Of a stretch of 64,000 nucleotides of DNA, positions 3,253 through 61,448 are shown in pieces. Every line of letters starts with the position of its first letter. The stretch's first letter is position 1. Both the position numbers and the translations under genes were made by a program. Below the pieces are notes generated by a model that ran no database searches, was not told where the DNA came from, and worked only from the letters and a program-made list of their open reading frames with translations. This DNA comes from Candidatus Babeliales bacterium (GTDB lineage: Bacteria; Babelota; Babeliae; Babelales; RVW-14), in assembly GCA_041671765.1 (NCBI GenBank), contig JBAZAX010000002.1, forward strand, positions 3,609-67,608, read 5' to 3'.

Positions 3253-4320
3253 TCACTTCATATCCTGATATAATAAATCAATATTTCTTCGATATTCAGA
3301 GTATGTTAAATATTTTTTATAACTTAAATGACTTTTTAAATCATATCCTGGACCCACACCACTATTGATAAGCTTTTTTATATTCTGAGTAGTTTTTAAA
3401 ATAAAAGCATCACAACCACTCCCACTTCCATAACTAACTAACAGTATTTTTTTATCAGGTTGTGCTTGATCAAGAACGGAACACAAACCTAATAAAGAAC
3501 TTGCACTGTAAGTATTTCCAATATCCTGCACGACAAACCCTGGATTGATTTGTTCTGATTTAAAACCTAAACTTTTTGCAACCATTAGCGGAAGTTTGCC
3601 GTTAGGTTGATGAAAAACAACATAATCAAATGCTTCCGGACCACAGGAATGTTTTTCAAAAATTTTTTTCACAATTGTACTGACGTGTTTTAAATATGCC
3701 GGCTCCGCGGTAAAACGTCCTGCATGTTCCGGATATTTTTGCATACTGCGACGCCAAAAATCAGGGGTATCTGATGCAATTGAAATTGTATCCTCAATAT
3801 TTGCAATAATCTTAGAGTCATCTGTGCCAAGAATAAATGCAGCCGCACCGGCACCGGCACTATACTCAAGAATATCGCCAGGAGAGGCTTGAGCTGTATC
3901 AGTTCCTATTGCCATTCCGAATTTTGCAAAACCTGATTTTACCAGACCAAGACAAACGCCTAATGCCGCAGTACCTGCCTTGCATGCAAACTCCATATCT
4001 GCAGCCATGCAAAAACTATCTGCACCAATAGCTGCACCAACAATTGTTGCCGTTGGTTTTACTGCATATGGAGCACTTTCGCTACCAACGTAAATAGCAT
4101 TAATTTCTTTAGAATTTAAACCACACTGTAAAAGAGAATTTTTTGCGGCATTAACTGCAAAAGTTACGGAGTCCTCGTCAATACCGGGAACAGATTTTTC
4201 TTCAATCAAGAGGCTAGATTTAATTTGATGAAAATTTTGTTGCCAAGCCTTGGCTATCTCTTCAGCCTTTATTCGATAGACCGGAATATAAAAACCATAT
4301 CCGACAATTCCAACATTCAT
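3253..4320 (-). CDS. HMG-CoA synthase (short archaeal-like form)
   Basis: 'MNVGIVGYGFYIPVYRIKAEEIA', 'GSESAPYAVKP', 'FACKAGTAAL' and 'VFHQPNGKLP'. I place the start at ATG 4318-4320, because ORF-track codons 4321-4404 are read through a GC-rich repeat copy. Confidence 0.8.
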   Translation of the reverse strand: MNVGIVGYGFYIPVYRIKAEEIAKAWQQNFHQIKSSLLIEEKSVPGIDEDSVTFAVNAAKNSLLQCGLNSKEINAIYVGSESAPYAVKPTATIVGAAIGADSFCMAADMEFACKAGTAALGVCLGLVKSGFAKFGMAIGTDTAQASPGDILEYSAGAGAAAFILGTDDSKIIANIEDTISIASDTPDFWRRSMQKYPEHAGRFTAEPAYLKHVSTIVKKIFEKHSCGPEAFDYVVFHQPNGKLPLMVAKSLGFKSEQINPGFVVQDIGNTYSASSLLGLCSVLDQAQPDKKILLVSYGSGSGCDAFILKTTQNIKKLINSGVGPGYDLKSHLSYKKYLTYSEYRRNIDLLYQDMK

Positions 4321-4338
4321 TATCAACTCTTTTTGTAA

Positions 4339-4457
4339 TCCTGCCTGTCCGCCACGTGTCGGCCATAGCCACCTGGGCGACGGCTGATAGCTCTTCGCGC
4401 TCATGGTGAGCCAGTCGAACCACGGCTGGGAACTTGATTCAGGATCAATGGATTAAC
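4339..4457. repeat. GC-rich dispersed repeat copy (E + B-like + D)
   Basis: 'CCTGCCTGTCCGCCAC..GGGCGACGGC', 'GGTGAGCCAGTCGAACCAC' and 'TTGATTCAGGATCAATGGATTAAC', immediately upstream of the HMG-CoA synthase start. Confidence 0.75.
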
Positions 4458-14416: not shown

Positions 14417-14908
14417 TTGAAAGAAAACATGCAATACAAAATTGTACAATCTAATCGAATATTATTCGCAGGCATAGAATTACGGCTAAATCTTACAGAT
14501 GAGCAAGCACCTCAAAAAATTGGTAATTTTTGGAATAAATTTTTTACAGAAAAAATATTAGACAAAATTGTAAATGCAAAAAAGCCTATAAATACAATGG
14601 CTCTTTACACAAATTATGATAATCAAGGCAATTATTCTATGGTTATTGGATGCCAAGCAACCTCTCGAAGCAATATTCCGTCAGACATGACTTCAGAAAT
14701 TAATGTATATGAAATTCCTGCGGCAAAATACGCAGTATTTTCAGTCACAGGTCAATTTCCTCAAGCTGTTTCAGATTTTTGGCAAAAATTGTGGTTAAAC
14801 AAAGACAACTTGGGATTTCAACGCGCATTTACTACGGACTTTGAATTATATGATCATAGATTTTCATCTGCAACGCCAGAAATGGACGTTTATACCGCGA
14901 TTAAATAG
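14417..14908 (+). CDS. GyrI-like / AraC-effector-binding-domain small-molecule binding protein
   Basis: 163 aa. 'FWNKFF', 'YEIPAAKYAVFSVTG' and 'FELYD' are typical of the GyrI-like fold. TTG at 14417, alternative ATG at 14429. Confidence 0.6.
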   Translation: MKENMQYKIVQSNRILFAGIELRLNLTDEQAPQKIGNFWNKFFTEKILDKIVNAKKPINTMALYTNYDNQGNYSMVIGCQATSRSNIPSDMTSEINVYEIPAAKYAVFSVTGQFPQAVSDFWQKLWLNKDNLGFQRAFTTDFELYDHRFSSATPEMDVYTAIK

Positions 14909-17226: not shown

Positions 17227-18756
17227 ATGGGAGTAGTAATGATCGAATTAATTAAAAAAGAAAAAAATTTTTTGCTACTTACGTTTTTTTTATCTCTTGC
17301 AATCAAAGTAATTTTCTTTCTAATTTTTCTCAAAAATAACTCCTGTTTATTAATGTTTGATTCAGGGCAGTATCACAAAGTCGCACTCAATATTTTATCG
17401 TGGACAGGTCAGACAAATTTTTACCGTATGCCAGGCTATCCGGTATTTTTAGCCGCTTGCTACAAAATTTTCGGGGTGCATCCCATTGCGGCTCTTATAA
17501 TGCAAATTATACTTGGCTCTCTAATTCCATTATTAGTATTTGCTCTTGCACTAGTATTGTTTGATAAATCAACATTTAACAGCCAGATAAAAACGGCTAA
17601 ACTTGCGAGTTTAGTTGCCTGTTTTGATCTTGGTTATATAATTTTCCCCGGACTAATCATGTCCGAAATATTATTTACTATGTTTTTCACGCTATTTCTA
17701 ATTTTATTTCTGTATAATTACACGCCATTTTTTTGCAAAAGCCCTCTTCTAAAAACATTAAGACAGCCCCTTCGACAGGCTCCCAGCCTTCGCTCAGAAT
17801 TAGCTTCGGCGGGCAGGCAGGGTGAGCGCGACGAGCACACTAAAGAACCCGCTCGTGGTGAGCTTGTCGAACCATTTCAACGGGTTCTTACATTTCCAAT
17901 TTCCAGATTGTTTTTGGCAGGAATAGCTCTCGGAATAGCTTGTCTGATCAGACCTGTTGGACATGGCCTGTTCTTAACATCAATTTTTATGCTGATGGTT
18001 TCAAAAGATAAATTTTTTGTAAAAATAAAATCTATAGCACTGTTTAGTACTGGGCTTGCATTCACATTGGGTATATGGATATTCAGAAATTTTCTTCTAA
18101 CCGGCTACATTTTTATGCACACACTTTCAGGCCCACATTTTTTAAATCATTCAGCAGTAAGGCTTTGCATGATGGATGAAAAAATAACTTATGAACAGGC
18201 ACAAAAAAAGGTTTACGCTGAACTTAAAAATCTTGAACCAGCAAAAACAAATGTACTGGGCAAGCCGTTGCAAGAAATCGAGCACTGCCAATTAGCGGAA
18301 AAGCTCGCAATATCTTACATGCTTAAGAACCCCGTACTTACAGTTCAACATTTTATATCAAACATGTTAAAAACAACATTTGGACTTTATAGCTCTGAGT
18401 TACTTGTAATAGACTCCGGCGGGCAACTCCCTGAATACAGTAATAATCGAAGTATTAAAAGCATTTTTAAACGTTTTTTGCTTCCTGACGTAAATAATAA
18501 ATTTATAATTTGGGTAATTTATTTTGAAATAATATTTTTTTTATTTATTTTACTTGGCCTAGCCATATTTATATTTATATCACCAATTGATCGCGGAAAA
18601 ATATGTACACTCATCAAAACACTGCCTTTTATCTGCTGCTTAATATTTTTGACTCTTTCATGCGGTTATGCGAGATTAAGATTGCCAATCGAATCATTTT
18701 TAATTATTTTAGCGATTAAAGAATGGCAACTTTTATTTTCTAAAAAAGGGGAGTAA
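17227..18756 (+). CDS. GT-C-like polytopic membrane glycosyltransferase, paralog 2 (carries in-frame GC-rich repeat)
   Basis: 'FYRMPGYPVFLAACYKIFG', 'LIRPVGHGL', 'FRNFLLTGYIFMHTL' and 'CGYARLRLP' parallel ORF 12768-14336. Codons at 17761-17890 come from a composite repeat. Alternative start ATG at 17239. Confidence 0.65.
   Translation: MGVVMIELIKKEKNFLLLTFFLSLAIKVIFFLIFLKNNSCLLMFDSGQYHKVALNILSWTGQTNFYRMPGYPVFLAACYKIFGVHPIAALIMQIILGSLIPLLVFALALVLFDKSTFNSQIKTAKLASLVACFDLGYIIFPGLIMSEILFTMFFTLFLILFLYNYTPFFCKSPLLKTLRQPLRQAPSLRSELASAGRQGERDEHTKEPARGELVEPFQRVLTFPISRLFLAGIALGIACLIRPVGHGLFLTSIFMLMVSKDKFFVKIKSIALFSTGLAFTLGIWIFRNFLLTGYIFMHTLSGPHFLNHSAVRLCMMDEKITYEQAQKKVYAELKNLEPAKTNVLGKPLQEIEHCQLAEKLAISYMLKNPVLTVQHFISNMLKTTFGLYSSELLVIDSGGQLPEYSNNRSIKSIFKRFLLPDVNNKFIIWVIYFEIIFFLFILLGLAIFIFISPIDRGKICTLIKTLPFICCLIFLTLSCGYARLRLPIESFLIILAIKEWQLLFSKKGE
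17761..17890. repeat. Composite GC-rich repeat (module A interrupted by module C, then hairpin module B), in frame in GT-C paralog 2
   Basis: 'CCTTCGACAGGCTC' + 'CCAGCCTTCGCTCAGAATTAGCTTCGGCGGGCAGGC' + 'AGGGTGAGCGCGA' ... 'AAGAACCCGCTCGTGGTGAGCTTGTCGAACCATTTCAACGGGTTCTT'. Confidence 0.85.
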
Positions 18757-33573: not shown

Positions 33574-34014
33574 TTATCTGTTTTTTTTATGAATAGATCT
33601 CTTCTGCAACTTAAGAACCCGTTGAAATGGTTCGACAAGCTCACCACGAGCGGGTTCTTCAAAATGTTCATCGCGCTCACCCTGAGCTTGTCGAAGGGTC
33701 TGCTTGCTTGCATTTAGAAGAGATCTAGTAACTTCTTGTGTAACACTTATGCCAAGCCTTACCAATACACTGGATAGATCAAAATTTTGTGTATCAATTT
33801 TTATCATTTTGTTCCTCGATGTTGCGCCACGCAATATTTTAAAACAATCAGTAGAGATCCCAAGTGCTTTACTTAGTAGCTTTACCAATTCCTCATTTGC
33901 CTTCCCACCTTCTGGCTTACTTTTTAATCTGCACTTAATAATTCCGGATTTATCTTGCTCAAAGCCCTGCTGTTTGGAGTTTGGAACAACTTTTAACTCA
34001 ATAACTACAGACAT
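33574..34014 (-). CDS. DUF167 (YggU-like) protein with repeat-encoded C-terminal extension
   Basis: 'LKVVPNSK...KCRLKSKPEGGKANEELVKLLSKALG' is the DUF167 core. The last ~45 codons ('LRQAQGERDEHFEEPARGELVEPFQRVL') are read from a GC-rich repeat. Confidence 0.7.
   Translation of the reverse strand: MSVVIELKVVPNSKQQGFEQDKSGIIKCRLKSKPEGGKANEELVKLLSKALGISTDCFKILRGATSRNKMIKIDTQNFDLSSVLVRLGISVTQEVTRSLLNASKQTLRQAQGERDEHFEEPARGELVEPFQRVLKLQKRSIHKKNR
33611..33705. repeat. GC-rich repeat (modules B + A, opposite orientation to 17761-17890)
   Basis: 'AAGAACCCGTTGAAATGGTTCGACAAGCTCACCACGAGCGGGTTCTT' has 9-bp inverted arms. It is followed by 'TCGCGCTCACCCTGAGCTTGTCGAAGGG'. Confidence 0.85.
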
Positions 34015-56665: not shown

Positions 56666-57994
56666 ATGTTTAACTTTCTTTCAGAAAAATTTGCAGGCGT
56701 CTTAGGTTGGCTAAAAAACAAGGGTCGGTTAACCGAAGAAAACATTCAAGAAGCTCTTGATCAGGTTCGCAATGCATTGCTCGATGCAGACGTACCTCAC
56801 GATATTATAGATGCATTTTTAAATCAAATAAAAGACGGCATCGTTGGACAAAAGCTTCAGGCAAGCTTAAATCCGGGACAAATGCTTATCAAAATTGTTC
56901 ATGAAAAATTACTCAGTTTTTTGGGAGGCACAGGCTCAACAAGCCAAGTTACATTCCAAATCCCATCAATTATACTGGTCATGGGGTTACAGGGCTCCGG
57001 TAAAACAACCACTATCGCAAAGGTTGCTAACTGGGTAAACAAGGAAGCAGCCAAACGTGGAAAAAAGCGCAGAATCCTGTTGGCATCAGTCGATTTTTAT
57101 CGTCCGGCAGCCGTTGAACAGCTTAAAATACTTGCTGCCCAGGTTGGCGTAGATTTTTATTCCGCCACAAACACCAAACCGGTAAGCGCTGCCAAAGAAA
57201 TTCAAGATTATTTCAAAAAAAATCAATATGAACTACTGTTCTTAGATACGGCCGGTCGCTTCCACGTTGACGACGAAATGATGCATGAGTTAGTTGAAAT
57301 CAACAAAACAGTAGCTCCAAAATACAAATTTCTAGTTTTGGATGCCATGACGGGCCAAGAGTCCTTAAAAGTAGCTAAATCATTCAATGATTCCGTAAAT
57401 TTTGATTTTTCTATTTTAAGCAAAATGGATAGCGACGCACGCGGTGGTGCGGCATTTGCATTTCGCTATGCCCTTAAAAAACCCATTGCTTTTGTTGGAT
57501 CCGGCGAGAAAATAGATGATCTTGAAACTTTCATTCCTGAACGTATGGCAACAAGAATTCTTGGAATGGGCGACATTTTGACACTGATTGAAAAAGCAAG
57601 TGAAAGCATCGAGATAGACAGCCAAGAAACTATGGTCAAAAGATTCTCCGAGGGCACATTTTCTTTAAAAGATTTCGCCGAACAGCTTGATATGATTGAC
57701 AAAATGGGGTCTTTGAATAAAATTACAAGATACCTTCCAGGAATGAACAGCATTTCTCCGGAGGATATGGAACGCGGACAGTCGGAAATGAAGCGTTTCA
57801 AGGCAATAATATCTTCCATGACGGAAAAAGAACGCATTATGCCAACCCTACTTGATGGATCAAGAAAGCAAAGAGTTGCAAGGGGTGCAGGCGTAAATGT
57901 GCAAGATATCAATCAATTGCTACAAAGATTTGAACAAAGTAAGCAATTTGTTAAAATGTTTAAAAAGATGGGTAAGTTCAGAAAGTTTTTTTAA
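56666..57994 (+). CDS. ffh: Signal recognition particle protein Ffh
   Basis: NG domain 'GLQGSGKTTT', 'DTAGR' and 'SKMD', followed by a Met-rich M domain. Confidence 0.92.
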   Translation: MFNFLSEKFAGVLGWLKNKGRLTEENIQEALDQVRNALLDADVPHDIIDAFLNQIKDGIVGQKLQASLNPGQMLIKIVHEKLLSFLGGTGSTSQVTFQIPSIILVMGLQGSGKTTTIAKVANWVNKEAAKRGKKRRILLASVDFYRPAAVEQLKILAAQVGVDFYSATNTKPVSAAKEIQDYFKKNQYELLFLDTAGRFHVDDEMMHELVEINKTVAPKYKFLVLDAMTGQESLKVAKSFNDSVNFDFSILSKMDSDARGGAAFAFRYALKKPIAFVGSGEKIDDLETFIPERMATRILGMGDILTLIEKASESIEIDSQETMVKRFSEGTFSLKDFAEQLDMIDKMGSLNKITRYLPGMNSISPEDMERGQSEMKRFKAIISSMTEKERIMPTLLDGSRKQRVARGAGVNVQDINQLLQRFEQSKQFVKMFKKMGKFRKFF

Positions 57995-58056
57995 CTAAAA
58001 TATCTTACCTCTTAATGTTGATAGTTGTTAGTTGTTGTTAGAAAGGACATTGATAA

Positions 58057-58317
58057 ATGGCAGTTAAAATTCGTCTAAGCAGAATAGGCAAAAAAAACAG
58101 ACCGTTCTGTCGCATTGTTGCTATAGACTCTCAGAAAAAAAGAGATGGTGCTTCCCTTGAAACTCTAGGTTCTTACGATCCTATTACACATGAAGTCATA
58201 CAACTTCATATGGACAAAATAGAACAATGGATCTCAAAGGGTGCCAAATGCAGCGCCGCAGTTGAAAAGCTTATCAAGGATAAGAAAACCAGCTCACCAA
58301 AAGCAAAAGCCGCTTAA
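58057..58317 (+). CDS. rpsP: 30S ribosomal protein S16
   Basis: 'MAVKIRLSRIGKKNRPFCRIVAIDSQKKRDG' is the canonical S16 N-terminus. Lies downstream of ffh. Confidence 0.92.
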   Translation: MAVKIRLSRIGKKNRPFCRIVAIDSQKKRDGASLETLGSYDPITHEVIQLHMDKIEQWISKGAKCSAAVEKLIKDKKTSSPKAKAA

Positions 58318-58393
58318 CACTGGCAAGACTTTTAGATTTGTTAATTGAGGTAGTTCTTACAAACTGTATAGCTTAATTTTGGAGCAGTAAACC

Positions 58394-58633
58394 ATGAGTA
58401 TCCTTAAAGAATTAGTTGAACAAATCGTAAAAAAATTAGTTGATAAACCAGAGAGTGTCAACGTAACAGAAGTCAGTGGCGAACAATCAACTATTATTGA
58501 ACTTCGCGTTGCACCTGAAGATTTGGGCAAAGTCATTGGCAAAGAAGGCAGAACCGCAAGGTCAATAAGAACTCTTGTTCAGGCTACAGCATCAAAAGAA
58601 CACAAGCGCGCTGTTCTTGAGATTTTGGAATAA
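58394..58633 (+). CDS. KH-domain RNA-binding protein (UPF0109/YlqC/KhpA-like)
   Basis: 79 aa with '[25 protein letters not shown]' (GxxG KH motif). Canonical position after rpsP. Confidence 0.85.
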
Positions 58634-58664
58634 GAAGTCACAAAATATTTATAATAAAATTCGG

Positions 58665-58698
58665 TGGCTGGTGAACTTAACGCCAGCCATTTTTTTTT
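58665..58698 (+). terminator. Rho-independent terminator (or attenuator) between the KH gene and trmD
   Basis: Stem TGGCTGGTG/CGCCAGCCA with loop AACTTAA, followed by T9. Confidence 0.65.
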
Positions 58699-58716
58699 GG
58701 AAGCCATGATTAAATC

Positions 58717-60234
58717 ATGATTAAGATATCAATTATCACCGTTTTTCCTGAATTACATGAAAATTTCATTAACACGAGCTTGATTCAACGTGCCGTTAAA
58801 CAAGAAATTATTCAATTCAATCTCGTGCGTTTTTCAGACATGTGTCAACCCAAAGAACGAATTGACGAACCAACCGTTGGACATGGCGCCGGAATGATAA
58901 TTAAGCCTGAAGTTATCCAAAAGGCAATTGATCAGTGCCAAGAAAAGTGGGGTTCCGGATTTAAAATCTTTTTTTCGCCTCAGGGACAAAGACTTGATCA
59001 ACGCAAACTAAGCAATATTTATAAAAAATTGATATCCCGGGACCAAAATCAACAAGATCAAACTGGTAAATCTAACCAAGGACAAGCCATCGTATCCGCT
59101 CCTATAAGCACCACTGAGCCTTTTCCAGAATCAGACGCGTCACCTATCGGTGATGGTTCGACAAGCTCACCACGAGCGCGCCAGCTTGATGGCACTCTTC
59201 CTGAGCCTATCGAAGGATGCGAGCTTCAGAAGAGATATACTGAATCAGATCTTCATTTAATACTTATATGTTCTCGATACGAAGGCATCGACGAACGCGT
59301 AGAAAGTTTTTATGCAGACATGACAGTATCAATCGGCGACTATGTATTAATGGGCGGAGACCTTCCAGCACAGGTCTTCTTGGAAGGACTTTTGCGATTG
59401 ATTCCAAATGTTGTTGGAAAAACAGCTTCTGTAGAGAACGAATCGTTCCAGGGAGCTTTTTTTGACCACCCTGAATATGGGCTGCCAGTTGAATGGAATC
59501 AACTGAAAATTCCGGATGTATTGCGTTCAGGGAATCACAAGCAAATAGCAATATGGCGAAAAGAACAGGCTGTTAAAAAAACAATTTTAAATAGATTTGA
59601 TTGGATACAAGAAAGTCACCCGGATGAAACGGATCTTGAACTTTGCAGAAAATTTATTCCTAACCATTATGTCGTAATAATGCACTCCCAAGTTATTGTT
59701 GGAGACGGGCATAAAGTTGGGCACACATCTGTGGCATCAATAGACATTCACGACATCGCCCGCAGTTGTAAAACATATGGCATCAAGAATTTTTTTATTG
59801 TTACGCAGCTTGAAGATCAGTTCAAGATCGTAAACACATTTTTTGATTTTTGGCATTCCAAAAAAGGCAAAGATTACAACTTAAGCCGCTACAACGCGAT
59901 CGAATCCGTGATTTTAACAAAATCATTCGAGTCAGTACGGGAACAAATTAAACAAAAAGAGAATCTGGATCCTATCATAATTACAACATCTGCAAAATCT
60001 CATGGAAACGGCGTAAAAATTGATTACTTCAGCCAAGGACTTGTTTGGCAAGAGAATCGACCGGTTTTGATTGTTTTTGGCACAGGACAGGGGCTCAGCG
60101 ATGAAATAATGGATCAAAGTAATTTTATCCTCACCCCGGTTCGTGGCCTTACCAGTTACAACCATCTTTCTGTAAGATCTGCTGCTGCAGTTATTCTTGA
60201 CAGATGGCTTGGATTAAATTCAAAAGTTGAGTAA
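58717..60234 (+). CDS. trmD: tRNA (guanine37-N1)-methyltransferase TrmD fused to a second SPOUT-like (TM1570/Methyltrn_RNA_4-like) domain
   Basis: TrmD part: 'ISIITVFPELHENF', 'VGHGAGMIIKPE' and 'LICSRYEGIDERV'. C-terminal ~200 aa: 'VASIDIHDIARSCKTYGIKNFFIV', 'VFGTGQGLSDE' and 'YNHLSVRSAAAVILDRW'. 505 aa in total. Confidence 0.8.
   Translation: MIKISIITVFPELHENFINTSLIQRAVKQEIIQFNLVRFSDMCQPKERIDEPTVGHGAGMIIKPEVIQKAIDQCQEKWGSGFKIFFSPQGQRLDQRKLSNIYKKLISRDQNQQDQTGKSNQGQAIVSAPISTTEPFPESDASPIGDGSTSSPRARQLDGTLPEPIEGCELQKRYTESDLHLILICSRYEGIDERVESFYADMTVSIGDYVLMGGDLPAQVFLEGLLRLIPNVVGKTASVENESFQGAFFDHPEYGLPVEWNQLKIPDVLRSGNHKQIAIWRKEQAVKKTILNRFDWIQESHPDETDLELCRKFIPNHYVVIMHSQVIVGDGHKVGHTSVASIDIHDIARSCKTYGIKNFFIVTQLEDQFKIVNTFFDFWHSKKGKDYNLSRYNAIESVILTKSFESVREQIKQKENLDPIIITTSAKSHGNGVKIDYFSQGLVWQENRPVLIVFGTGQGLSDEIMDQSNFILTPVRGLTSYNHLSVRSAAAVILDRWLGLNSKVE
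59135..59232. repeat. GC-rich repeat (module B core and related sequence), in frame inside trmD
   Basis: 'GGTTCGACAAGCTCACCACGAGCG' is identical to 33639-33662. It is followed by 'GAGCCTATCGAAGGATGCGAGCTTCAG'. Confidence 0.75.
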
Positions 60235-60332
60235 AAATTAAAAAAGAAACTCGGAGACTTTACTGTATCTATGCAAAATACACTAACTTACATTATTACA
60301 GCTTGAATATAGATATTTACTAAATTTTACCC

Positions 60333-60361
60333 TTGATAACTGCCCATTTTGTCTATATAAT
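60333..60361 (+). promoter_or_regulatory. Sigma70-type promoter upstream of rplS
   Basis: TTGATA (60333-60338), an exact 17-nt spacer, then TATAAT (60356-60361). This implies a leader of about 85 nt. Confidence 0.5.
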
Positions 60362-60454
60362 ACAAGTTAAGTCTTTAAATTTTCCTGCATTTATGCTTTA
60401 TAATTTGATATAATAATTTGATATAGTTTTTTAAGTTTTGGTTCAAGGAATACG

Positions 60455-60871
60455 ATGAAATCGACTCGTTTAAGCAAAGAAACAATTTTGGATTTGGCAA
60501 CAGCTGAGCGCAATTTCCCCGACTTCAGAGTTGGCGATACAATCAGCGTTGCATCAAAGGTAAAAGAAGGCGCCAAGGAAAGACTACAGAGCTTTGAAGG
60601 CGAAGTTATTGACAGTCACAAAAATGGCATTGCATCGACCTTTACCGTTCGTAGAATTGGGGCAAATAGCGTTGGAGTTGAAAGAATCTATCCATACTAC
60701 TCTCCAAATATAGCTGAAATCACATTTGTAAAACGCGGTCGTGTACGCAGAGCCAAATTGGGCTACCTACGTCATCGTGTTGGTCGTGCCGGCAGAGTTA
60801 AAGAATTGGTCATATCAAAAGAAGAAACGGCCAGAATCAAAGGCGCAGGAACTCCTAAAACAAATGAATAA
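60455..60871 (+). CDS. rplS: 50S ribosomal protein L19
   Basis: 'FRVGDTISVASKVKEGAKERLQSFEGEVI' and 'TFTVRRIGANSVGVERIYPYYSPNI'. RBS 'AAGGA'. Confidence 0.92.
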   Translation: MKSTRLSKETILDLATAERNFPDFRVGDTISVASKVKEGAKERLQSFEGEVIDSHKNGIASTFTVRRIGANSVGVERIYPYYSPNIAEITFVKRGRVRRAKLGYLRHRVGRAGRVKELVISKEETARIKGAGTPKTNE

Positions 60872-61448
60872 ATTCGATATAAATTCGATACACAAAGGGC
60901 AGCCAAAAGGCTGTCCTTTGTTATTTATCCCAATTATTTTAACAATTTTCATTGCAATTTTACCCGCATGCTCAAAAAAGAGTATTGAAAATACTGCATC
61001 GCAAGTTCAATCAAGTGATATAAATAATCCATGCGAAGAAGCAACTCAAAACATATATCCCAAAATATCTCCCAGCATATCCCAAGTCCAAATCAAAAAA
61101 ACTCACTATAAAACATTTGTAAATCAGGCCAGAAATATTGATATATCAACGCCTGTTGGATTTAGGCTTGAAAAAAGTGATAGTAATGAGATTGTAGAAA
61201 ACAGAACCATGAACGATGAAATCCTCTTTTTTTTATATCATGGAAATCAGGACATAAAAAAAGTGGGTTCATTCTATAAGCGTGAGCTTGAAATTTTAGG
61301 ATGGGACTTTAAAGATTTATCAACAAAGCAAGAGGGCCTTTTTATCTGTAATAAAAGCTCAAAAACATGCGTTGTATCAATCAGACCTAAAGATATTAGT
61401 GGCTCAATAATTTGTATCACAATAACAAATAAATTTGATCAAAATTAA
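60864..61448 (+). CDS. Hypothetical lipoprotein
   Basis: I prefer ATG 60864 ('MNKFDINS...'), which overlaps the rplS stop by 8 nt. Lipobox-like 'ILPAC'. The ORF-track start at 60741 would lie inside rplS. Confidence 0.5.
   Translation: MNKFDINSIHKGQPKGCPLLFIPIILTIFIAILPACSKKSIENTASQVQSSDINNPCEEATQNIYPKISPSISQVQIKKTHYKTFVNQARNIDISTPVGFRLEKSDSNEIVENRTMNDEILFFLYHGNQDIKKVGSFYKRELEILGWDFKDLSTKQEGLFICNKSSKTCVVSIRPKDISGSIICITITNKFDQN

What the first reader, a model, noticed from the sequence alone, without database searches (positions are those of the whole stretch)
58717..60234. TrmD fused to a second SPOUT-like domain (TM1570/Methyltrn_RNA_4-like); rimM absent from the operon
At 505 aa the ORF is about twice the size of a normal TrmD. 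From my recollection of the predicted RNA methyltransferase family typified by Thermotoga TM1570, the C-terminal ~200 residues match it ('SIDIHDIARSCKTYGIKNFFIVT', 'FGTGQGLSDE', 'YNHLSVRSAAAVILDRW'). As I recall, that gene neighbours trmD in Thermotoga. A covalent fusion would be strong Rosetta-stone evidence that the uncharacterised domain acts with TrmD on tRNA.

The usual rimM gene between the KH gene and trmD is missing. In its place is a strong hairpin with a T9 run (58665-58698), which could act as a terminator or an attenuator.
Basis: partly seen in the sequence, partly recalled or inferred. Interest (0 to 1): 0.6.

Follow-up and report, generated by a model that had tools for sequence, protein, structure and literature searches.

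The report
TrmD–Tm1570 fusion carrying repeat insertion
The gene is a real fusion of the essential tRNA methyltransferase TrmD with a second knotted methyltransferase domain, an architecture already described and crystallised, but here a mobile palindromic DNA repeat is translated in frame inside the knotted core of the TrmD half.

Summary
ORF 58717-60234 is one uninterrupted 505-aa gene with TrmD (PF01746) followed by Tm1570/Methyltrn_RNA_4 (PF09936, E 7e-57). The identical ORF occurs in three independent assemblies. The fusion is not new: it was noted in 2007 and crystallised from Calditerrivibrio (PDB 8B1N, the best sequence and fold match). It is the form found in every Dependentiae (TM6/Babeliales) relative examined, the phylum this window comes from.

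rimM is missing between the KH gene and trmD in all 14 related loci. The spacer always holds a GC-rich hairpin plus T-run with lineage-specific stems, which suggests a conserved terminator or attenuator.

New here: about 75 of the 505 residues are an insertion in the helix-to-strand loop inside the TrmD knot core. AlphaFold predicts residues 121-174 to be disordered. The insertion carries a doublet of a palindromic repeat with 26-nt exact copies at three window sites (four copies within 3 mismatches; 0 expected). One other copy sits in frame in another gene. The closest relatives lack the TrmD insertion. At least three other Dependentiae lineages carry copies of the same repeat family in the same loop. 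The repeat's 24-nt arm also occurs across many phyla.

Verdict: a known fusion, with a new RPE-like variant.

The parts
56666..57994 (+). ffh (SRP54), first gene of the conserved block
   Evidence: Pfam SRP54_N/SRP54/SRP_SPB. It is in the same position in all related loci.
58057..58317 (+). rpsP (ribosomal protein S16)
   Evidence: PF00886, E 2e-20.
58394..58633 (+). KhpA-like KH-domain protein gene
   Evidence: PF13083, E 8e-27. NCBIfam NF001748 scores 112 bits against a cutoff of 106.
58663..58698 (+). Intrinsic-terminator-like hairpin (11-bp stem, 7-nt loop) plus T9, occupying the place where rimM normally lies
   Evidence: Terminator scan. RNA fold gives -18.4 kcal/mol, z -3.7. An equivalent hairpin plus T-run, with different stem sequences, is in the same spacer in L001, L007-L012.
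58717..60234 (+). trmD::Tm1570 fusion gene, 505 aa
58717..59025 (+). TrmD domain, part before the insertion (aa 1-103, including D50 and the SPQG loop 87-90)
   Evidence: Aligns to 8b1n residues 6-105. Invariant residues in A5. pLDDT above 90.
59023..59256 (+). Hypervariable loop of the TrmD domain (aa 103-180). It replaces 4 residues (106-109) of CnTrmD, which lie inside its knot core of residues 85-129.
   Evidence: The stretch between invariant Q95 and H180 is 84 aa here; the median over 119 homologues is 29. pLDDT is below 50 for aa 121-174, i.e. nt 59077-59238.
59136..59249 (+). 114-nt (38-codon) in-frame insertion derived from a palindromic repeat. It holds two inverted modules (loop motifs at 59157 + and 59202 -) and is flanked by the direct repeat GAATCAGA (59128-59135 and 59242-59249).
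   Evidence: There is a 26-nt exact match to two other window sites. The arm has 4 copies within 3 mismatches against 0 expected. The doublet is shown. The insertion is absent from the P0001-P0004 loci. GC is 0.49 against 0.355 for the window. There are 122 BLAST hits to repeat copies from other phyla.
59248..59640 (+). TrmD domain, part after the insertion (RYEGID, SIGDYVLMGGD, R227, E242-S-F, SGNH 271-274) and the C-terminal helical subdomain
   Evidence: Pfam best stretch is aa 178-293. Alignment to 8b1n. Invariant columns. Foldseek TM about 0.89 to TrmD structures.
59665..60210 (+). Tm1570 / Methyltrn_RNA_4 SPOUT domain (aa 317-498)
   Evidence: PF09936, E 6.7e-57. 3dcm TM_1570, E 5e-39. 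Invariant motifs D343/H345/D346/R349, T424-A426, G455-L460 and H483-R487.
60333..60361 (+). Near-consensus sigma-70-like promoter (TTGATA-17-TATAAT) in the 220-nt spacer before rplS
   Evidence: Matches 11 of 12 positions. This is a consensus match only.
60455..60871 (+). rplS (L19), followed by a terminator-like hairpin at 60892-60921
   Evidence: PF01245, E 2e-38. Terminator scan.
33594..33727 (+). Most complete copy of the same repeat: a 134-nt palindrome with the 12-nt terminal inverted repeat TAGATCTCTTCT. It forms the C-terminal tail of the YggU/DUF167 ORF 33574-34014 (-).
   Evidence: MFE -53.6 kcal/mol, z -5.6.
17737..17892 (-). Copy of the repeat translated in frame inside the 509-aa ArnT-like glycosyltransferase ORF 17227-18756 (+). 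It gives an insertion of about 50 aa that is absent from all 9 nearest homologues.
4396..4422 (-). Diverged single module of the repeat at the 5' end of ORF 3253-4404 (-)

Best explanation
The gene encodes a bifunctional, probably homodimeric, doubly knotted SPOUT methyltransferase of the TrmD-Tm1570 type. This is the ordinary form of TrmD in every Dependentiae relative examined here.

Shown:
- The domain architecture is intact.
- All SAM-binding and catalytic motifs of both halves are conserved.
- The fold matches PDB 8B1N.

Inferred from the family:
- The N-terminal half makes m1G37 in tRNA.
- The C-terminal half is a TrmJ-like ribose 2'-O-methyltransferase acting on the same tRNA anticodon-loop region. 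Its substrate is unproven.

Specific to this genome: a 114-nt doublet of a palindromic, MITE/REPIN-like repeat has landed in frame in the loop between helix alpha4 and the 'LILICSRYEG' strand. This loop lies inside the TrmD trefoil-knot core but at the N-terminal end of the strand, away from the SAM pocket. The insertion is simply translated as a disordered surface loop, as Rickettsia palindromic elements (RPEs) are. The same loop has been hit by the same repeat family in other Dependentiae lineages, so it is a permissive landing site.

Expression (inferred): rimM has been lost from the operon. A conserved hairpin plus T-run between the KH gene and trmD most likely attenuates read-through from rpsP and the KH gene. 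The enzyme would then be made at a lower level than the ribosomal protein. rplS appears to have its own promoter.
For: Architecture and integrity:
- The identical ORF occurs in three independent assemblies.
- The best 120 homologues listed (119 aligned) all carry PF01746+PF09936. The named ones are TM6, Dependentiae or Babeliales, apart from one labelled Epsilonproteobacteria and two labelled only 'bacterium'.
- The window organism is a Babeliales MAG (P0121).

Structure:
- phmmer against PDB gives 8b1n at E 1.9e-79 and 3dcm at E 5e-39.
- The AF2 model has pLDDT 87.6 and pTM 0.82.
- The Foldseek top hit is 8b1n at E 1e-40. The TrmD half has TM about 0.89 and rmsd about 2 A to TrmD crystals.

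Conserved motifs across 119 sequences:
- TrmD half: D50, G90, R187-Y188-E189-G190, S205, G207-D208, G213-G214-D215, R227, S243-F244, G272, H274.
- Tm1570 half: D343, H345, D346, R349, T424, A426, G455, T456, G459, L460, H483-R487.

Function of the family (PMC11187310):
- CnTrmD-Tm1570 methylates tRNALeu at G37.
- Tm1570 is closest in structure to TrmJ.

Insertion:
- It replaces Cn residues 106-109, inside the Cn knot core 85-129.
- pLDDT is below 50 for aa 121-174.
- It has a 26-nt exact match to 2 other window sites.
- The 24-nt arm gives 4 hits within 3 mismatches against 0.00 expected.
- It has an inverted-module doublet.
- Relatives that are 89-94 % identical outside the loop lack it.
- Its GC is 0.49 against 0.355 for the window.

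Same phenomenon elsewhere:
- There is an in-frame insertion of about 50 aa in the glycosyltransferase ORF, absent from 9 homologues.
- There is an in-frame copy in a >=380-aa ORF of another Babeliales MAG, L100.

Recurrence in the TrmD loop: only the loop region of the trmD genes hits a database of repeat copies taken from other phyla.
- Window: 122 hits.
- P0019: 169 hits (32 nt at 97 %, 27 nt at 100 %).
- P0014: 45 hits.
- P0093: 4 hits.
- Seven other genes: 0 hits.

Operon:
- rimM is absent in L001-L012 and L132-L135.
- A hairpin plus T-run with unrelated stem sequences is in every spacer examined.
Against: Nothing here is experimental.
- The Tm1570 substrate is unknown. In the only assay published, the isolated Cn Tm1570 domain kept just 18 +/- 9 % of the activity on tRNALeu.
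- NCBIfam NF000648 falls just below its cutoff (213.7 against 220), because the insertion splits the match.
- The general base Asp169 of E. coli TrmD is Glu242 here. It is also Glu in the active Cn enzyme.
- The GAATCAGA 'target-site duplication' is weak evidence. An 8-mer direct repeat somewhere in 250 nt is not rare, and the left boundary cannot be fixed independently because the loop is hypervariable.
- The trmD copy lacks the left terminal inverted repeat seen in the 33.6-kb copy.
- No promoter for trmD was found between the hairpin and the ATG, so read-through is assumed, not shown.
- The knot topology of the model could not be computed with these tools.
Confidence: 0.8

Rival explanations
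1. The 505-aa ORF is an assembly or sequencing artefact that joins two adjacent genes (trmD and a TM1570-like gene), or the insert is a chimeric misassembly.
For: In Thermotoga the two genes are separate and overlap by 7 nt. The insert has an atypical GC content.
Against: - The identical 505-aa product, insert included, is found on contigs from three other samples and assemblers.
- More than 119 homologous fusions exist.
- The inter-domain linker is conserved and modelled with high confidence.
- Fused proteins have been crystallised (8B1N).
Confidence: 0.01
2. The long TrmD loop is ordinary low-complexity linker drift. Its similarity to other window sites is chance, and no mobile element is involved.
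For: The loop is hypervariable in length (16-84 aa) and in sequence in all Dependentiae homologues. It is rich in Q, S, T and P in the close relatives.
Against: - Exact 26-nt matches occur at two other window sites, with 0 expected.
- A second, inverted module lies 45 nt downstream, as in the other copies.
- There are 28-nt exact matches to repeat copies in Chloroflexota genomes.
- The extra roughly 111-114 nt are absent from relatives that are 89-94 % identical outside the loop.
Confidence: 0.04
3. There was one ancient insertion of the repeat in the TrmD loop of the Dependentiae ancestor. It has since decayed in most lineages, which is the origin of the variable linker. It is occasionally refreshed by gene conversion from other genomic copies. 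On this view there were no repeated independent insertions.
For: - All Dependentiae homologues have a longer loop (median 29 aa between Q95 and H180) than the 4-residue connection in CnTrmD.
- Repeat-like remnants of graded quality are seen, from P0019 through P0014 and P0093 to P0083.
Against: - The close relatives of the window lineage have no trace of the repeat at the DNA level.
- The window copy is identical over 26 nt to other copies in the same genome.
- Module A is read in different frames in the window (G-S-T-S-S) and in P0014 (W-F-D).
- None of this excludes conversion or later indels.
Confidence: 0.3
4. The Tm1570 half is not an active methyltransferase on tRNA. It serves only as a tRNA-binding or dimer-stabilising module for TrmD, or it methylates rRNA instead.
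For: The isolated Cn Tm1570 domain had only 18 +/- 9 % of the activity. The authors suggest it may aid substrate binding and complex stability. No substrate is known for any PF09936 protein.
Against: - SAM is bound in the Tm1570 domain of 8B1N and in 3DCM.
- The three SAM-loop motifs and the Arg/Ser positions predicted to be catalytic are invariant across 119 Dependentiae fusions.
- Standalone homologues of 180-215 aa are the majority of the family, so the domain has a function of its own.
Confidence: 0.2
5. The hairpin plus T9 is a full terminator ending an ffh-rpsP-KH transcript. On this view trmD::Tm1570 is transcribed from its own promoter, for example the TATAAT at 58650-58655 just upstream of the hairpin, which would place the hairpin in the trmD leader. 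It is not transcribed by read-through.
For: The hairpin is strong and followed by nine T. A TATAAT box lies 8 nt upstream of the stem and is kept in L001, L007 and L008.
Against: - No good -35 box lies at 16-18 nt. The scan did not report a promoter there.
- The spacers in L010-L012 are only 60-87 nt and have no obvious promoter.
- In E. coli the four genes are co-transcribed (my own knowledge of the trmD operon).
Confidence: 0.3

Closest known systems
CnTrmD-Tm1570 of Calditerrivibrio nitroreducens (UniProt E4THH1, PDB 8B1N), the 'double-knotted' SPOUT fusion
   Same: - The domain order PF01746-PF09936 is the same.
- It is the best sequence match in the PDB (E 1.9e-79, both halves aligned) and the best fold match.
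- The motifs are the same, including Glu at the general-base position and SGNH.
   Different: - Identity is only about 29 % in the Foldseek alignment.
- The window protein has about 75 extra residues where Cn has residues 106-109, inside the Cn knot core 85-129.
- The phylum differs (Dependentiae against Deferribacterota by my own knowledge).
Thermotoga maritima TM1570 (PDB 3DCM) and standalone PF09936 proteins
   Same: The C-terminal 182 aa match over the full profile. 3dcm aligns at residues 5-187 with E 5e-39.
   Different: - TM1570 is a separate gene overlapping trmD by 7 nt.
- Among the best 150 cluster representatives, about 27 are fusions and most are standalone proteins of 180-215 aa.
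Escherichia coli trmD operon rpsP-rimM-trmD-rplS
   Same: The neighbours are the same (ffh upstream, rpsP, trmD, rplS). Low TrmD expression relative to the ribosomal proteins is known in E. coli (my own knowledge).
   Different: - rimM is missing and a KH gene is present.
- A terminator-like hairpin precedes trmD.
- rplS has a promoter-like site of its own.
Rickettsia palindromic elements (RPEs; Ogata et al. 2000, 2002, as summarised in PMC10969869)
   Same: - It is a short (about 110-150 nt) palindromic repeat.
- It has several copies per genome.
- It is inserted in frame in unrelated protein-coding genes, including essential ones, and is translated.
- The host is an intracellular or host-dependent bacterium with a reduced genome.
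   Different: - There is no sequence relationship to RPEs.
- The host phylum differs.
- The 24-nt arm is shared with genomes of many other phyla, which is not reported for RPEs.
- The same protein loop is hit in several lineages.
REP doublets (REPINs) and MITEs
   Same: - Two inverted modules can pair into a long hairpin.
- The best copy has 12-nt terminal inverted repeats flanked by TA.
- There is stem covariation in a subset of copies (A-T and G-C over A/C and G/T, Fisher p 0.008).
   Different: - No RAYT or parent transposase was identified.
- REPs are by definition extragenic and usually lineage-specific, whereas copies here lie inside ORFs and the arm is cross-phylum.
- No Rfam family matches.

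Membership tests
TrmD (tRNA m1G37 methyltransferase, PF01746 / TIGR00088) | Profile match above the curated cutoff | tested here: met
   PF01746 scores 124.3 bits against a cutoff of 27.3. TIGR00088 scores 207.6 against 195. NF000648 scores 213.7 against 220, just below, because the match is split by the insert.
TrmD (tRNA m1G37 methyltransferase, PF01746 / TIGR00088) | SAM-binding knot loops and catalytic residues: SPQG, RYEG, SIGDY..GG, Arg154-equivalent, acidic general base, Asp50-equivalent, SGNH | tested here: met
   S87-P88-Q89-G90, R187-G190, S205-Y209, G213-G214, R227, E242 (Glu as in the active CnTrmD), D50 and S271-H274 are all present. Most are invariant in 119 homologues. The residue roles come from my own knowledge of E. 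coli and H. influenzae TrmD.
TrmD (tRNA m1G37 methyltransferase, PF01746 / TIGR00088) | TrmD fold | tested here: met
   The AF2 model matches TrmD crystal structures with target-normalised TM 0.86-0.91 and rmsd about 2-2.5 A.
TrmD (tRNA m1G37 methyltransferase, PF01746 / TIGR00088) | m1G37 methyltransferase activity on G36-G37 tRNAs | not testable with these tools
   This is shown only for the Cn homologue.
Tm1570 / Methyltrn_RNA_4 (PF09936, COG4752) | Full-length profile match and similarity to TM1570 | tested here: met
   PF09936 has E 6.7e-57 over profile positions 2-181 of 182. 3dcm has E 5e-39.
Tm1570 / Methyltrn_RNA_4 (PF09936, COG4752) | Conserved SAM-binding loops and the Arg/Ser positions predicted to be catalytic | tested here: met
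   R349, T424, A426, G455-T456, G459-L460 and H483-R487 are invariant in A5. The prediction of their roles comes from PMC1829167.
Tm1570 / Methyltrn_RNA_4 (PF09936, COG4752) | RNA methyltransferase activity and substrate | not testable with these tools
   The substrate is unknown for the whole family.
Doubly knotted TrmD-Tm1570 fusion (PF01746-PF09936) | Both domains in one polypeptide, in this order | tested here: met
Doubly knotted TrmD-Tm1570 fusion (PF01746-PF09936) | Two 3_1 knots in the chain | not testable with these tools
The topology is inferred from the fold match to 8b1n.
RPE-like in-frame palindromic repeat | Repeated in the genome beyond chance | tested here: met
   There are 4 copies of the 24-nt arm in 64 kb against 0.00 expected.
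RPE-like in-frame palindromic repeat | Palindromic, hairpin-forming | tested here: met
   Inverted module doublets. The 33.6-kb copy folds at -53.6 kcal/mol, z -5.6. The trmD copy has z -2.9.
RPE-like in-frame palindromic repeat | Inserted in frame in protein-coding genes and absent from orthologues | tested here: met
   trmD, the glycosyltransferase ORF and an L100 ORF.
RPE-like in-frame palindromic repeat | Sequence homology to a Rickettsia RPE family | not tested
   No RPE sequences were available for comparison. The claim is that it works like an RPE, not that it is one.
MITE / REPIN | Terminal inverted repeats and target-site duplication | tested here: inconclusive
   The 12-nt TIR with flanking TA occurs in one copy only. 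GAATCAGA flanks the trmD copy but is statistically weak.
MITE / REPIN | Cognate transposase or RAYT in the genome | not tested
   Only 64 kb of the genome is available.
Rho-independent terminator / attenuator | GC-rich stem-loop followed by a U-run, conserved in position | tested here: met
Rho-independent terminator / attenuator | Termination or read-through in vivo | not testable with these tools
   No transcript data are available.

The most novel reading that the evidence does not exclude
The helix-to-strand loop inside the TrmD trefoil-knot core is a recurrent landing site, across Dependentiae lineages, for a cross-phylum palindromic (REPIN/MITE-like) repeat that is translated in frame.

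[quoted passage not shown] Its conserved 24-nt arm is shared with Chloroflexota, Acidobacteriota, Nitrospirota, Proteobacteria and others.

It would also be the origin of the hypervariable linker seen in all Dependentiae TrmD proteins. Finally, it would provide natural variants in which the knot-forming loop of an essential knotted enzyme is enlarged from about 45 to about 120 residues.
Probability: 0.4. Interest if true: 0.6.

Novelty: new variant of a known kind. Interest (0 to 1): 0.4.

Why it matters
The fusion itself adds little. It was known, crystallised and already used as Rosetta-stone evidence. What this window adds is threefold.

1. The fusion is the normal TrmD in every Dependentiae relative examined. 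All of the best 120 homologue clusters (90 % identity) listed in one search are fusions, against 66 proteins counted in Pfam by the 2024 paper. Across the 14 related loci it always lacks rimM and always follows a terminator-like hairpin.

2. An essential, deeply knotted enzyme tolerates a mostly disordered insertion of about 75 residues inside its knot core. Nature has repeated this in several lineages. These are ready-made constructs for testing how loop size affects knot threading, folding and ClpXP degradation in the system that the knot-folding field already uses.

3. The inserted DNA belongs to a palindromic repeat family whose 24-nt arm is conserved across many bacterial phyla. It has no Rfam family, and no paper in the searched library quotes its motif. 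In Babeliales it behaves like Rickettsia palindromic elements. If it is mobile across phyla, it is an undescribed and very widespread small element.

Tried and rejected
- **Rfam.** The whole window at gathering thresholds gave only 6 tRNAs. Region 58000-61000 at E<=1 gave only chance-level hits and no L19 or S16 leader. Fifteen repeat-bearing loci and the 33.6-kb copy gave no family for the repeat.
- **rimM elsewhere.** A Pfam scan of 18 window ORFs (17 of 112-254 aa plus the 383-aa ORF 3253-4404) found no RimM or PRC-barrel domain. Genome-wide absence could not be tested, because only 64 kb and flanks of up to 10 kb of relatives are available. The literature reports RimM missing from most CPR genomes. 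In the passages matching 'rimM' and 'Dependentiae' I found no statement on RimM in Dependentiae.
- **Literature on the repeat.** A search for the loop motif in four spellings found only two unrelated papers. 'Dependentiae + palindromic + repeat' found only CRISPR-type mentions.
- **Simple hairpin model of the repeat module.** Only 15 of 123 copies have an exact 7-nt complementary 5' arm next to the core. The element is better described as a doublet of inverted modules.
- **Integron attC site.** I considered this and dropped it, because I saw no convincing R''/R' core sites by eye.
- **tRNA 3'-half resemblance.** GGTTCGA...CACCA resembles a tRNA 3' half. I noted this and did not pursue it.
- **P0083 insert.** It looks repeat-like by eye but gave no significant BLAST hit, so it is not counted.
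- **Target-site duplication.** GAATCAGA is reported only as a possibility.
- **Knot detection.** This could not be run on the AF2 model because coordinates are not exposed.


Full report
**1. Observation**

The ORF at 58717-60234 on the plus strand is a single 505-aa frame from ATG to stop.
- Pfam finds PF01746 (tRNA_m1G_MT) in two stretches.
- Pfam finds PF09936 (Methyltrn_RNA_4, the TM1570 family) at residues 317-498, covering 180 of 182 profile positions (E 6.7e-57).
- The NCBIfam trmD equivalog TIGR00088 is passed (207.6 bits against a cutoff of 195). NF000648 falls just short (213.7 against 220) because the match is split.

Gene order is ffh, rpsP, a KhpA-like KH gene, the fusion, then rplS.

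The 83-nt gap between the KH gene and the fusion contains an 11-bp stem, a 7-nt loop and nine T (58663-58698). Its energy is -18.4 kcal/mol, z -3.7.

Every factual element of the finding is therefore confirmed.

**2. Not an artefact**

Exactly the same 505-aa product is called on contigs from three other samples (ENA ERZ27254744, ENA ERZ28564009, Logan SRR18595301), with the same neighbours. The best 120 homologues in a 5.8-billion-protein collection all carry both Pfam domains. So the proposed refutation, 'resequencing reveals two ORFs', does not apply.

**3. Organism and distribution**

Named homologues are mostly from candidate division TM6, Candidatus Dependentiae or Candidatus Babeliales. 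A neighbouring window protein is 100 % identical to a protein of a Candidatus Babeliales MAG (P0121).

I examined 14 related loci in all: three identical to the window and eleven spanning 52-94 % identity. In every one the order is ffh-rpsP-KH-fusion with no rimM. The fusion without rimM is therefore the form seen in every Dependentiae relative examined, not an oddity of this genome.

No RimM or PRC-barrel domain was found in 18 window ORFs tested. Whether rimM exists elsewhere in the genome cannot be decided from 64 kb. RimM is reported missing from most CPR genomes (PMC6744442; bioRxiv 10.1101/2024.11.29.625318), so its loss has precedent in reduced genomes.

**4. The fusion is already known**

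- Tkaczuk et al. 2007 reported TrmD fused to COG4752 in Desulfovibrio, Lawsonia and a deltaproteobacterium. They predicted COG4752 to be a ribose 2'-O-methyltransferase (PMC1829167).
- Perlinska et al. 2024 counted 66 PF01746-PF09936 proteins out of 299 PF09936 proteins. They described the series separate genes, adjacent genes, overlapping genes (Thermotoga, 7 nt) and fused gene.
- They also showed that the Calditerrivibrio fusion is a homodimer that methylates tRNALeu at G37 through its TrmD domain. The isolated Tm1570 domain kept 18 +/- 9 % of the activity.
- They noted that Tm1570 is structurally closest to TrmJ (PMC11187310).
- The crystal structure is PDB 8B1N (bioRxiv 10.1101/2023.03.13.532328).

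In my searches, 8b1n is the best PDB match by sequence (E 1.9e-79). It is also the best match by fold for an AlphaFold2 model of the window protein (pLDDT 87.6, pTM 0.82; Foldseek E 1e-40).

An exhaustive HMMER search with the C-terminal domain finds 392 clusters (50 % identity) at E<=1e-10. Among the best 150, about 27 are fusions of 408-554 aa and most others are standalone proteins of 180-215 aa.

**5. Both halves look functional**

Across 119 aligned fusions these residues are invariant.
- TrmD half: D50, the SPQG loop (G90), R187-Y188-E189-G190, S205, G207-D208, G213-G214-D215, R227, S243-F244, G272 and H274.
- Tm1570 half: D343, H345, D346, R349, T424, A426, G455-T456, G459-L460 and H483-R487.

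The general-base position is Glu242, as in the active Cn enzyme. The roles of the TrmD residues come from my knowledge of the E. coli and H. influenzae enzymes. Those of the Tm1570 residues are predictions from PMC1829167.

**6.

The PDB alignment breaks between query residues 102 and 181, which correspond to Cn residues 105 and 110. About 75 residues therefore stand where Cn has four.

The authors of the Cn structure place the TrmD knot core at residues 85-129, so the insertion lies within the knot core. It falls between helix alpha4 and the strand that leads into the RYEG SAM loop. That is the N-terminal end of the strand, on the side opposite the cofactor pocket (an inference from alpha/beta topology).

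AlphaFold gives pLDDT below 50 for residues 121-174 and above 90 on both sides.

Among 119 homologues, the distance between invariant Q95 and H180 has a median of 29 residues (range 16-84). The window protein is the longest. Close relatives that are 89-94 % identical elsewhere have shorter, unrelated sequences here.

**7. The insertion is derived from a dispersed palindromic repeat**

- The insert is GC-rich (0.49 against 0.355 for the window).
- It contains 26 nt identical to two other window sites (17850-17875 minus strand, 33627-33652 plus strand). A fourth site matches at 89 % (4396-4422).
- The 24-nt arm GGTTCGACAAGCTCACCACGAGCG has four matches within 3 mismatches, against 0.00 expected in 100 shuffles.
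- Each full copy is a doublet of inverted modules with the loop motif TTCGACARGCTCA. The pairs are at 59157(+)/59202(-), 33631(+)/33683(-) and 17859(-)/17771(+).
- The 33.6-kb copy is a 134-nt palindrome with 12-nt terminal inverted repeats flanked by TA. It folds at -53.6 kcal/mol, z -5.6.
- In trmD the extra DNA is bracketed by the direct repeat GAATCAGA, 114 nt or exactly 38 codons apart. The P0001 locus has a single GAATCAGA at the right-hand junction. I regard this as only a possible target-site duplication, because the left boundary lies in hypervariable sequence.

**8. The repeat behaves like a Rickettsia palindromic element**

- The 17.8-kb copy is translated in frame inside a 509-aa ArnT-like glycosyltransferase. 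It gives an insertion of about 50 aa (...LRQAPSLRSELASAGRQGERDEHTKEPARGELVEPFQRV...) that all nine nearest homologues lack.
- The 33.6-kb copy forms part of the C-terminal tail of a YggU/DUF167 protein, whose domain ends at residue 73 of 145.
- In another Babeliales MAG (L100) a copy lies 120 codons into an open frame of at least 380 codons.
- In-frame translated palindromic repeats in unrelated genes are the hallmark of RPEs (Ogata et al. 2000, 2002, as reviewed in PMC10969869).

I did not test sequence homology to RPEs. The claim is one of analogy.

**9. The TrmD loop is hit repeatedly**

Peptides typical of the repeat appear in the same loop of other homologues: 'GSTSSPRT...RGELVEP' in P0019, 'WFDAS...VRPEPVEG' in P0014, and others.

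At the DNA level, I searched eleven relatives' trmD genes, plus the window gene, against a database of repeat copies taken only from non-Dependentiae genomes.
- The only regions that hit are the loops of the window gene (122 hits), P0019 (169 hits; 32 nt at 97 %, 27 nt at 100 %), P0014 (45 hits) and P0093 (4 hits).
- Eight other genes give none.
- These four proteins are only 56-62 % identical to each other. Module A is read in different frames in the window and in P0014.

This favours independent insertions, or one ancient insertion with conversion and indels. I give the second a probability of about 0.3.

**10. The repeat is not confined to Dependentiae**

- Most are in Chloroflexota (Dehalococcoidia, SAR202), often with several copies per chromosome.
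- Others are in Acidobacteriota, Nitrospirae, Binatia, Burkholderiales, Nitrotoga, Lysobacterales, Anaeromyxobacter, Desulfobulbaceae, Parasphingorhabdus and Elusimicrobia.
- Three are in Dependentiae genomes.

Outside the roughly 28-nt core the copies do not align. In 46 of the 123 copies there is an upstream GCTCN that could pair with the core. In those 46, the base at N covaries with the core's Y position (A-T 19, G-C 11, A/C 9, G/T 3; Fisher p 0.008).

No Rfam family matches. The literature searches found nothing on it. What this element is, and why a 24-mer is conserved across phyla, remains unexplained.

**11. The hairpin**

In every Dependentiae locus examined, the 60-87-nt spacer between the KH gene and trmD folds into a GC-rich hairpin followed by a T-run. 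The stems have unrelated sequences:
- window and close relatives, GGTGGCTGG.../...CCAGCCA;
- L010, ATGGCTGGCAAA/TTTGCCAGCCAT;
- L011, AAAGAGGCTGAC/GTCAGCCTCTTT;
- L012, a 16-bp stem.

Position and structure are kept while sequence is not, which argues for function.

No promoter was predicted between the hairpin and the ATG. The simplest reading is therefore partial termination that lowers trmD expression relative to rpsP. A near-consensus promoter (TTGATA-17-TATAAT, 60333-60361) and a terminator (60892-60921) bracket rplS. This part is inference only.

**12. Verdict**

The finding is real and correctly interpreted, but the fusion is an already known, crystallised architecture. Its functional implication has already been drawn and remains experimentally open.

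The new content has three parts:
- the conservation of the fusion across the Dependentiae relatives examined, without rimM and behind a conserved terminator-like hairpin;
- the in-frame insertion of a palindromic repeat into the knot core of TrmD, recurrent across lineages;
- the existence of a cross-phylum repeat family that behaves in Babeliales like RPEs.

I rate it a new variant of a known kind, with interest 0.4.

Noticed in passing
They span many phyla: mainly Chloroflexota/Dehalococcoidia, but also Acidobacteriota, Nitrospirae, Binatia, several Proteobacteria, Elusimicrobia and Dependentiae. No Rfam family matches and no paper was found. Its nature (MITE, REPIN or other) and the reason for cross-phylum conservation are unexplained.
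   Followed up: partly
window 17737-17892 (within ORF 17227-18756 +): There is a second in-frame insertion of the same repeat, of about 50 aa, in an ArnT/PMT_2-like membrane glycosyltransferase. It is absent from all nine nearest homologues (62-80 % identity).
   Followed up: yes
window 33574-34014 (-), repeat 33594-33727: The YggU/DUF167 protein has its domain at aa 2-73 of 145. Its C-terminal tail is encoded partly by the most complete copy of the repeat, a 134-nt palindrome with 12-nt terminal inverted repeats flanked by TA.
   Followed up: partly
P0126 (homologue of ORF 17227-18756), alignment A6 columns ~355-380; window 4300-4400: A relative's glycosyltransferase carries a different 22-aa insertion (KILNQVPAVAKAMADTQDDKRQ). 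It resembles one reading of the sequence next to the 4.4-kb repeat module (VAMADTWRTG). Other repeat modules may therefore circulate in the clade.
   Followed up: no
L100 (Candidatus Babeliales MAG JBAYHB010000157.1) 756-779: The repeat arm lies 120 codons into an open frame of at least 380 codons (...HMVRHAHHERTKQ...PLVLSPSKD...). This is an in-frame intragenic copy in another Babeliales genome.
   Followed up: partly
window 58706-58720: A mini-ORF ATG ATT AAA TCA TGA (MIKS*) ends in an ATGA overlap with the trmD start codon. In L009 the first ATG is lost, but an in-frame ATG one codon later keeps a three-codon version. It could be a translational-coupling leader. It is absent in distant relatives (L010).
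   Followed up: no
window 60333-60361 and 60892-60921: A near-consensus promoter-like site (TTGATA-17-TATAAT) lies in the unusually long 220-nt spacer before rplS. A strong 13-bp terminator-like hairpin lies after rplS. Together they suggest that rplS is a separate transcription unit.
   Followed up: no
window 60741-61448 (+): The ORF downstream of and overlapping rplS encodes a protein with a lipoprotein-like N-terminus (...ILPACSKK). Its counterparts in relatives give weak PF27226 (AF_1845) hits. It is conserved next to rplS in many Dependentiae loci.
   Followed up: no
L012 6368-6973; L010 6321-7097: The gene after the fusion is not always rplS. In L012 an HD-domain gene lies between the fusion and rplS. 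In L010 (TM6 GW2011_GWF2_37_49) rplS is not adjacent at all.
   Followed up: no
window 14417-14908 (+): This is a Cass2 / GyrI-like small-molecule-binding protein ('integron-associated effector binding protein' in Pfam). It is noted only because an integron attC origin of the repeat was briefly considered.
   Followed up: no
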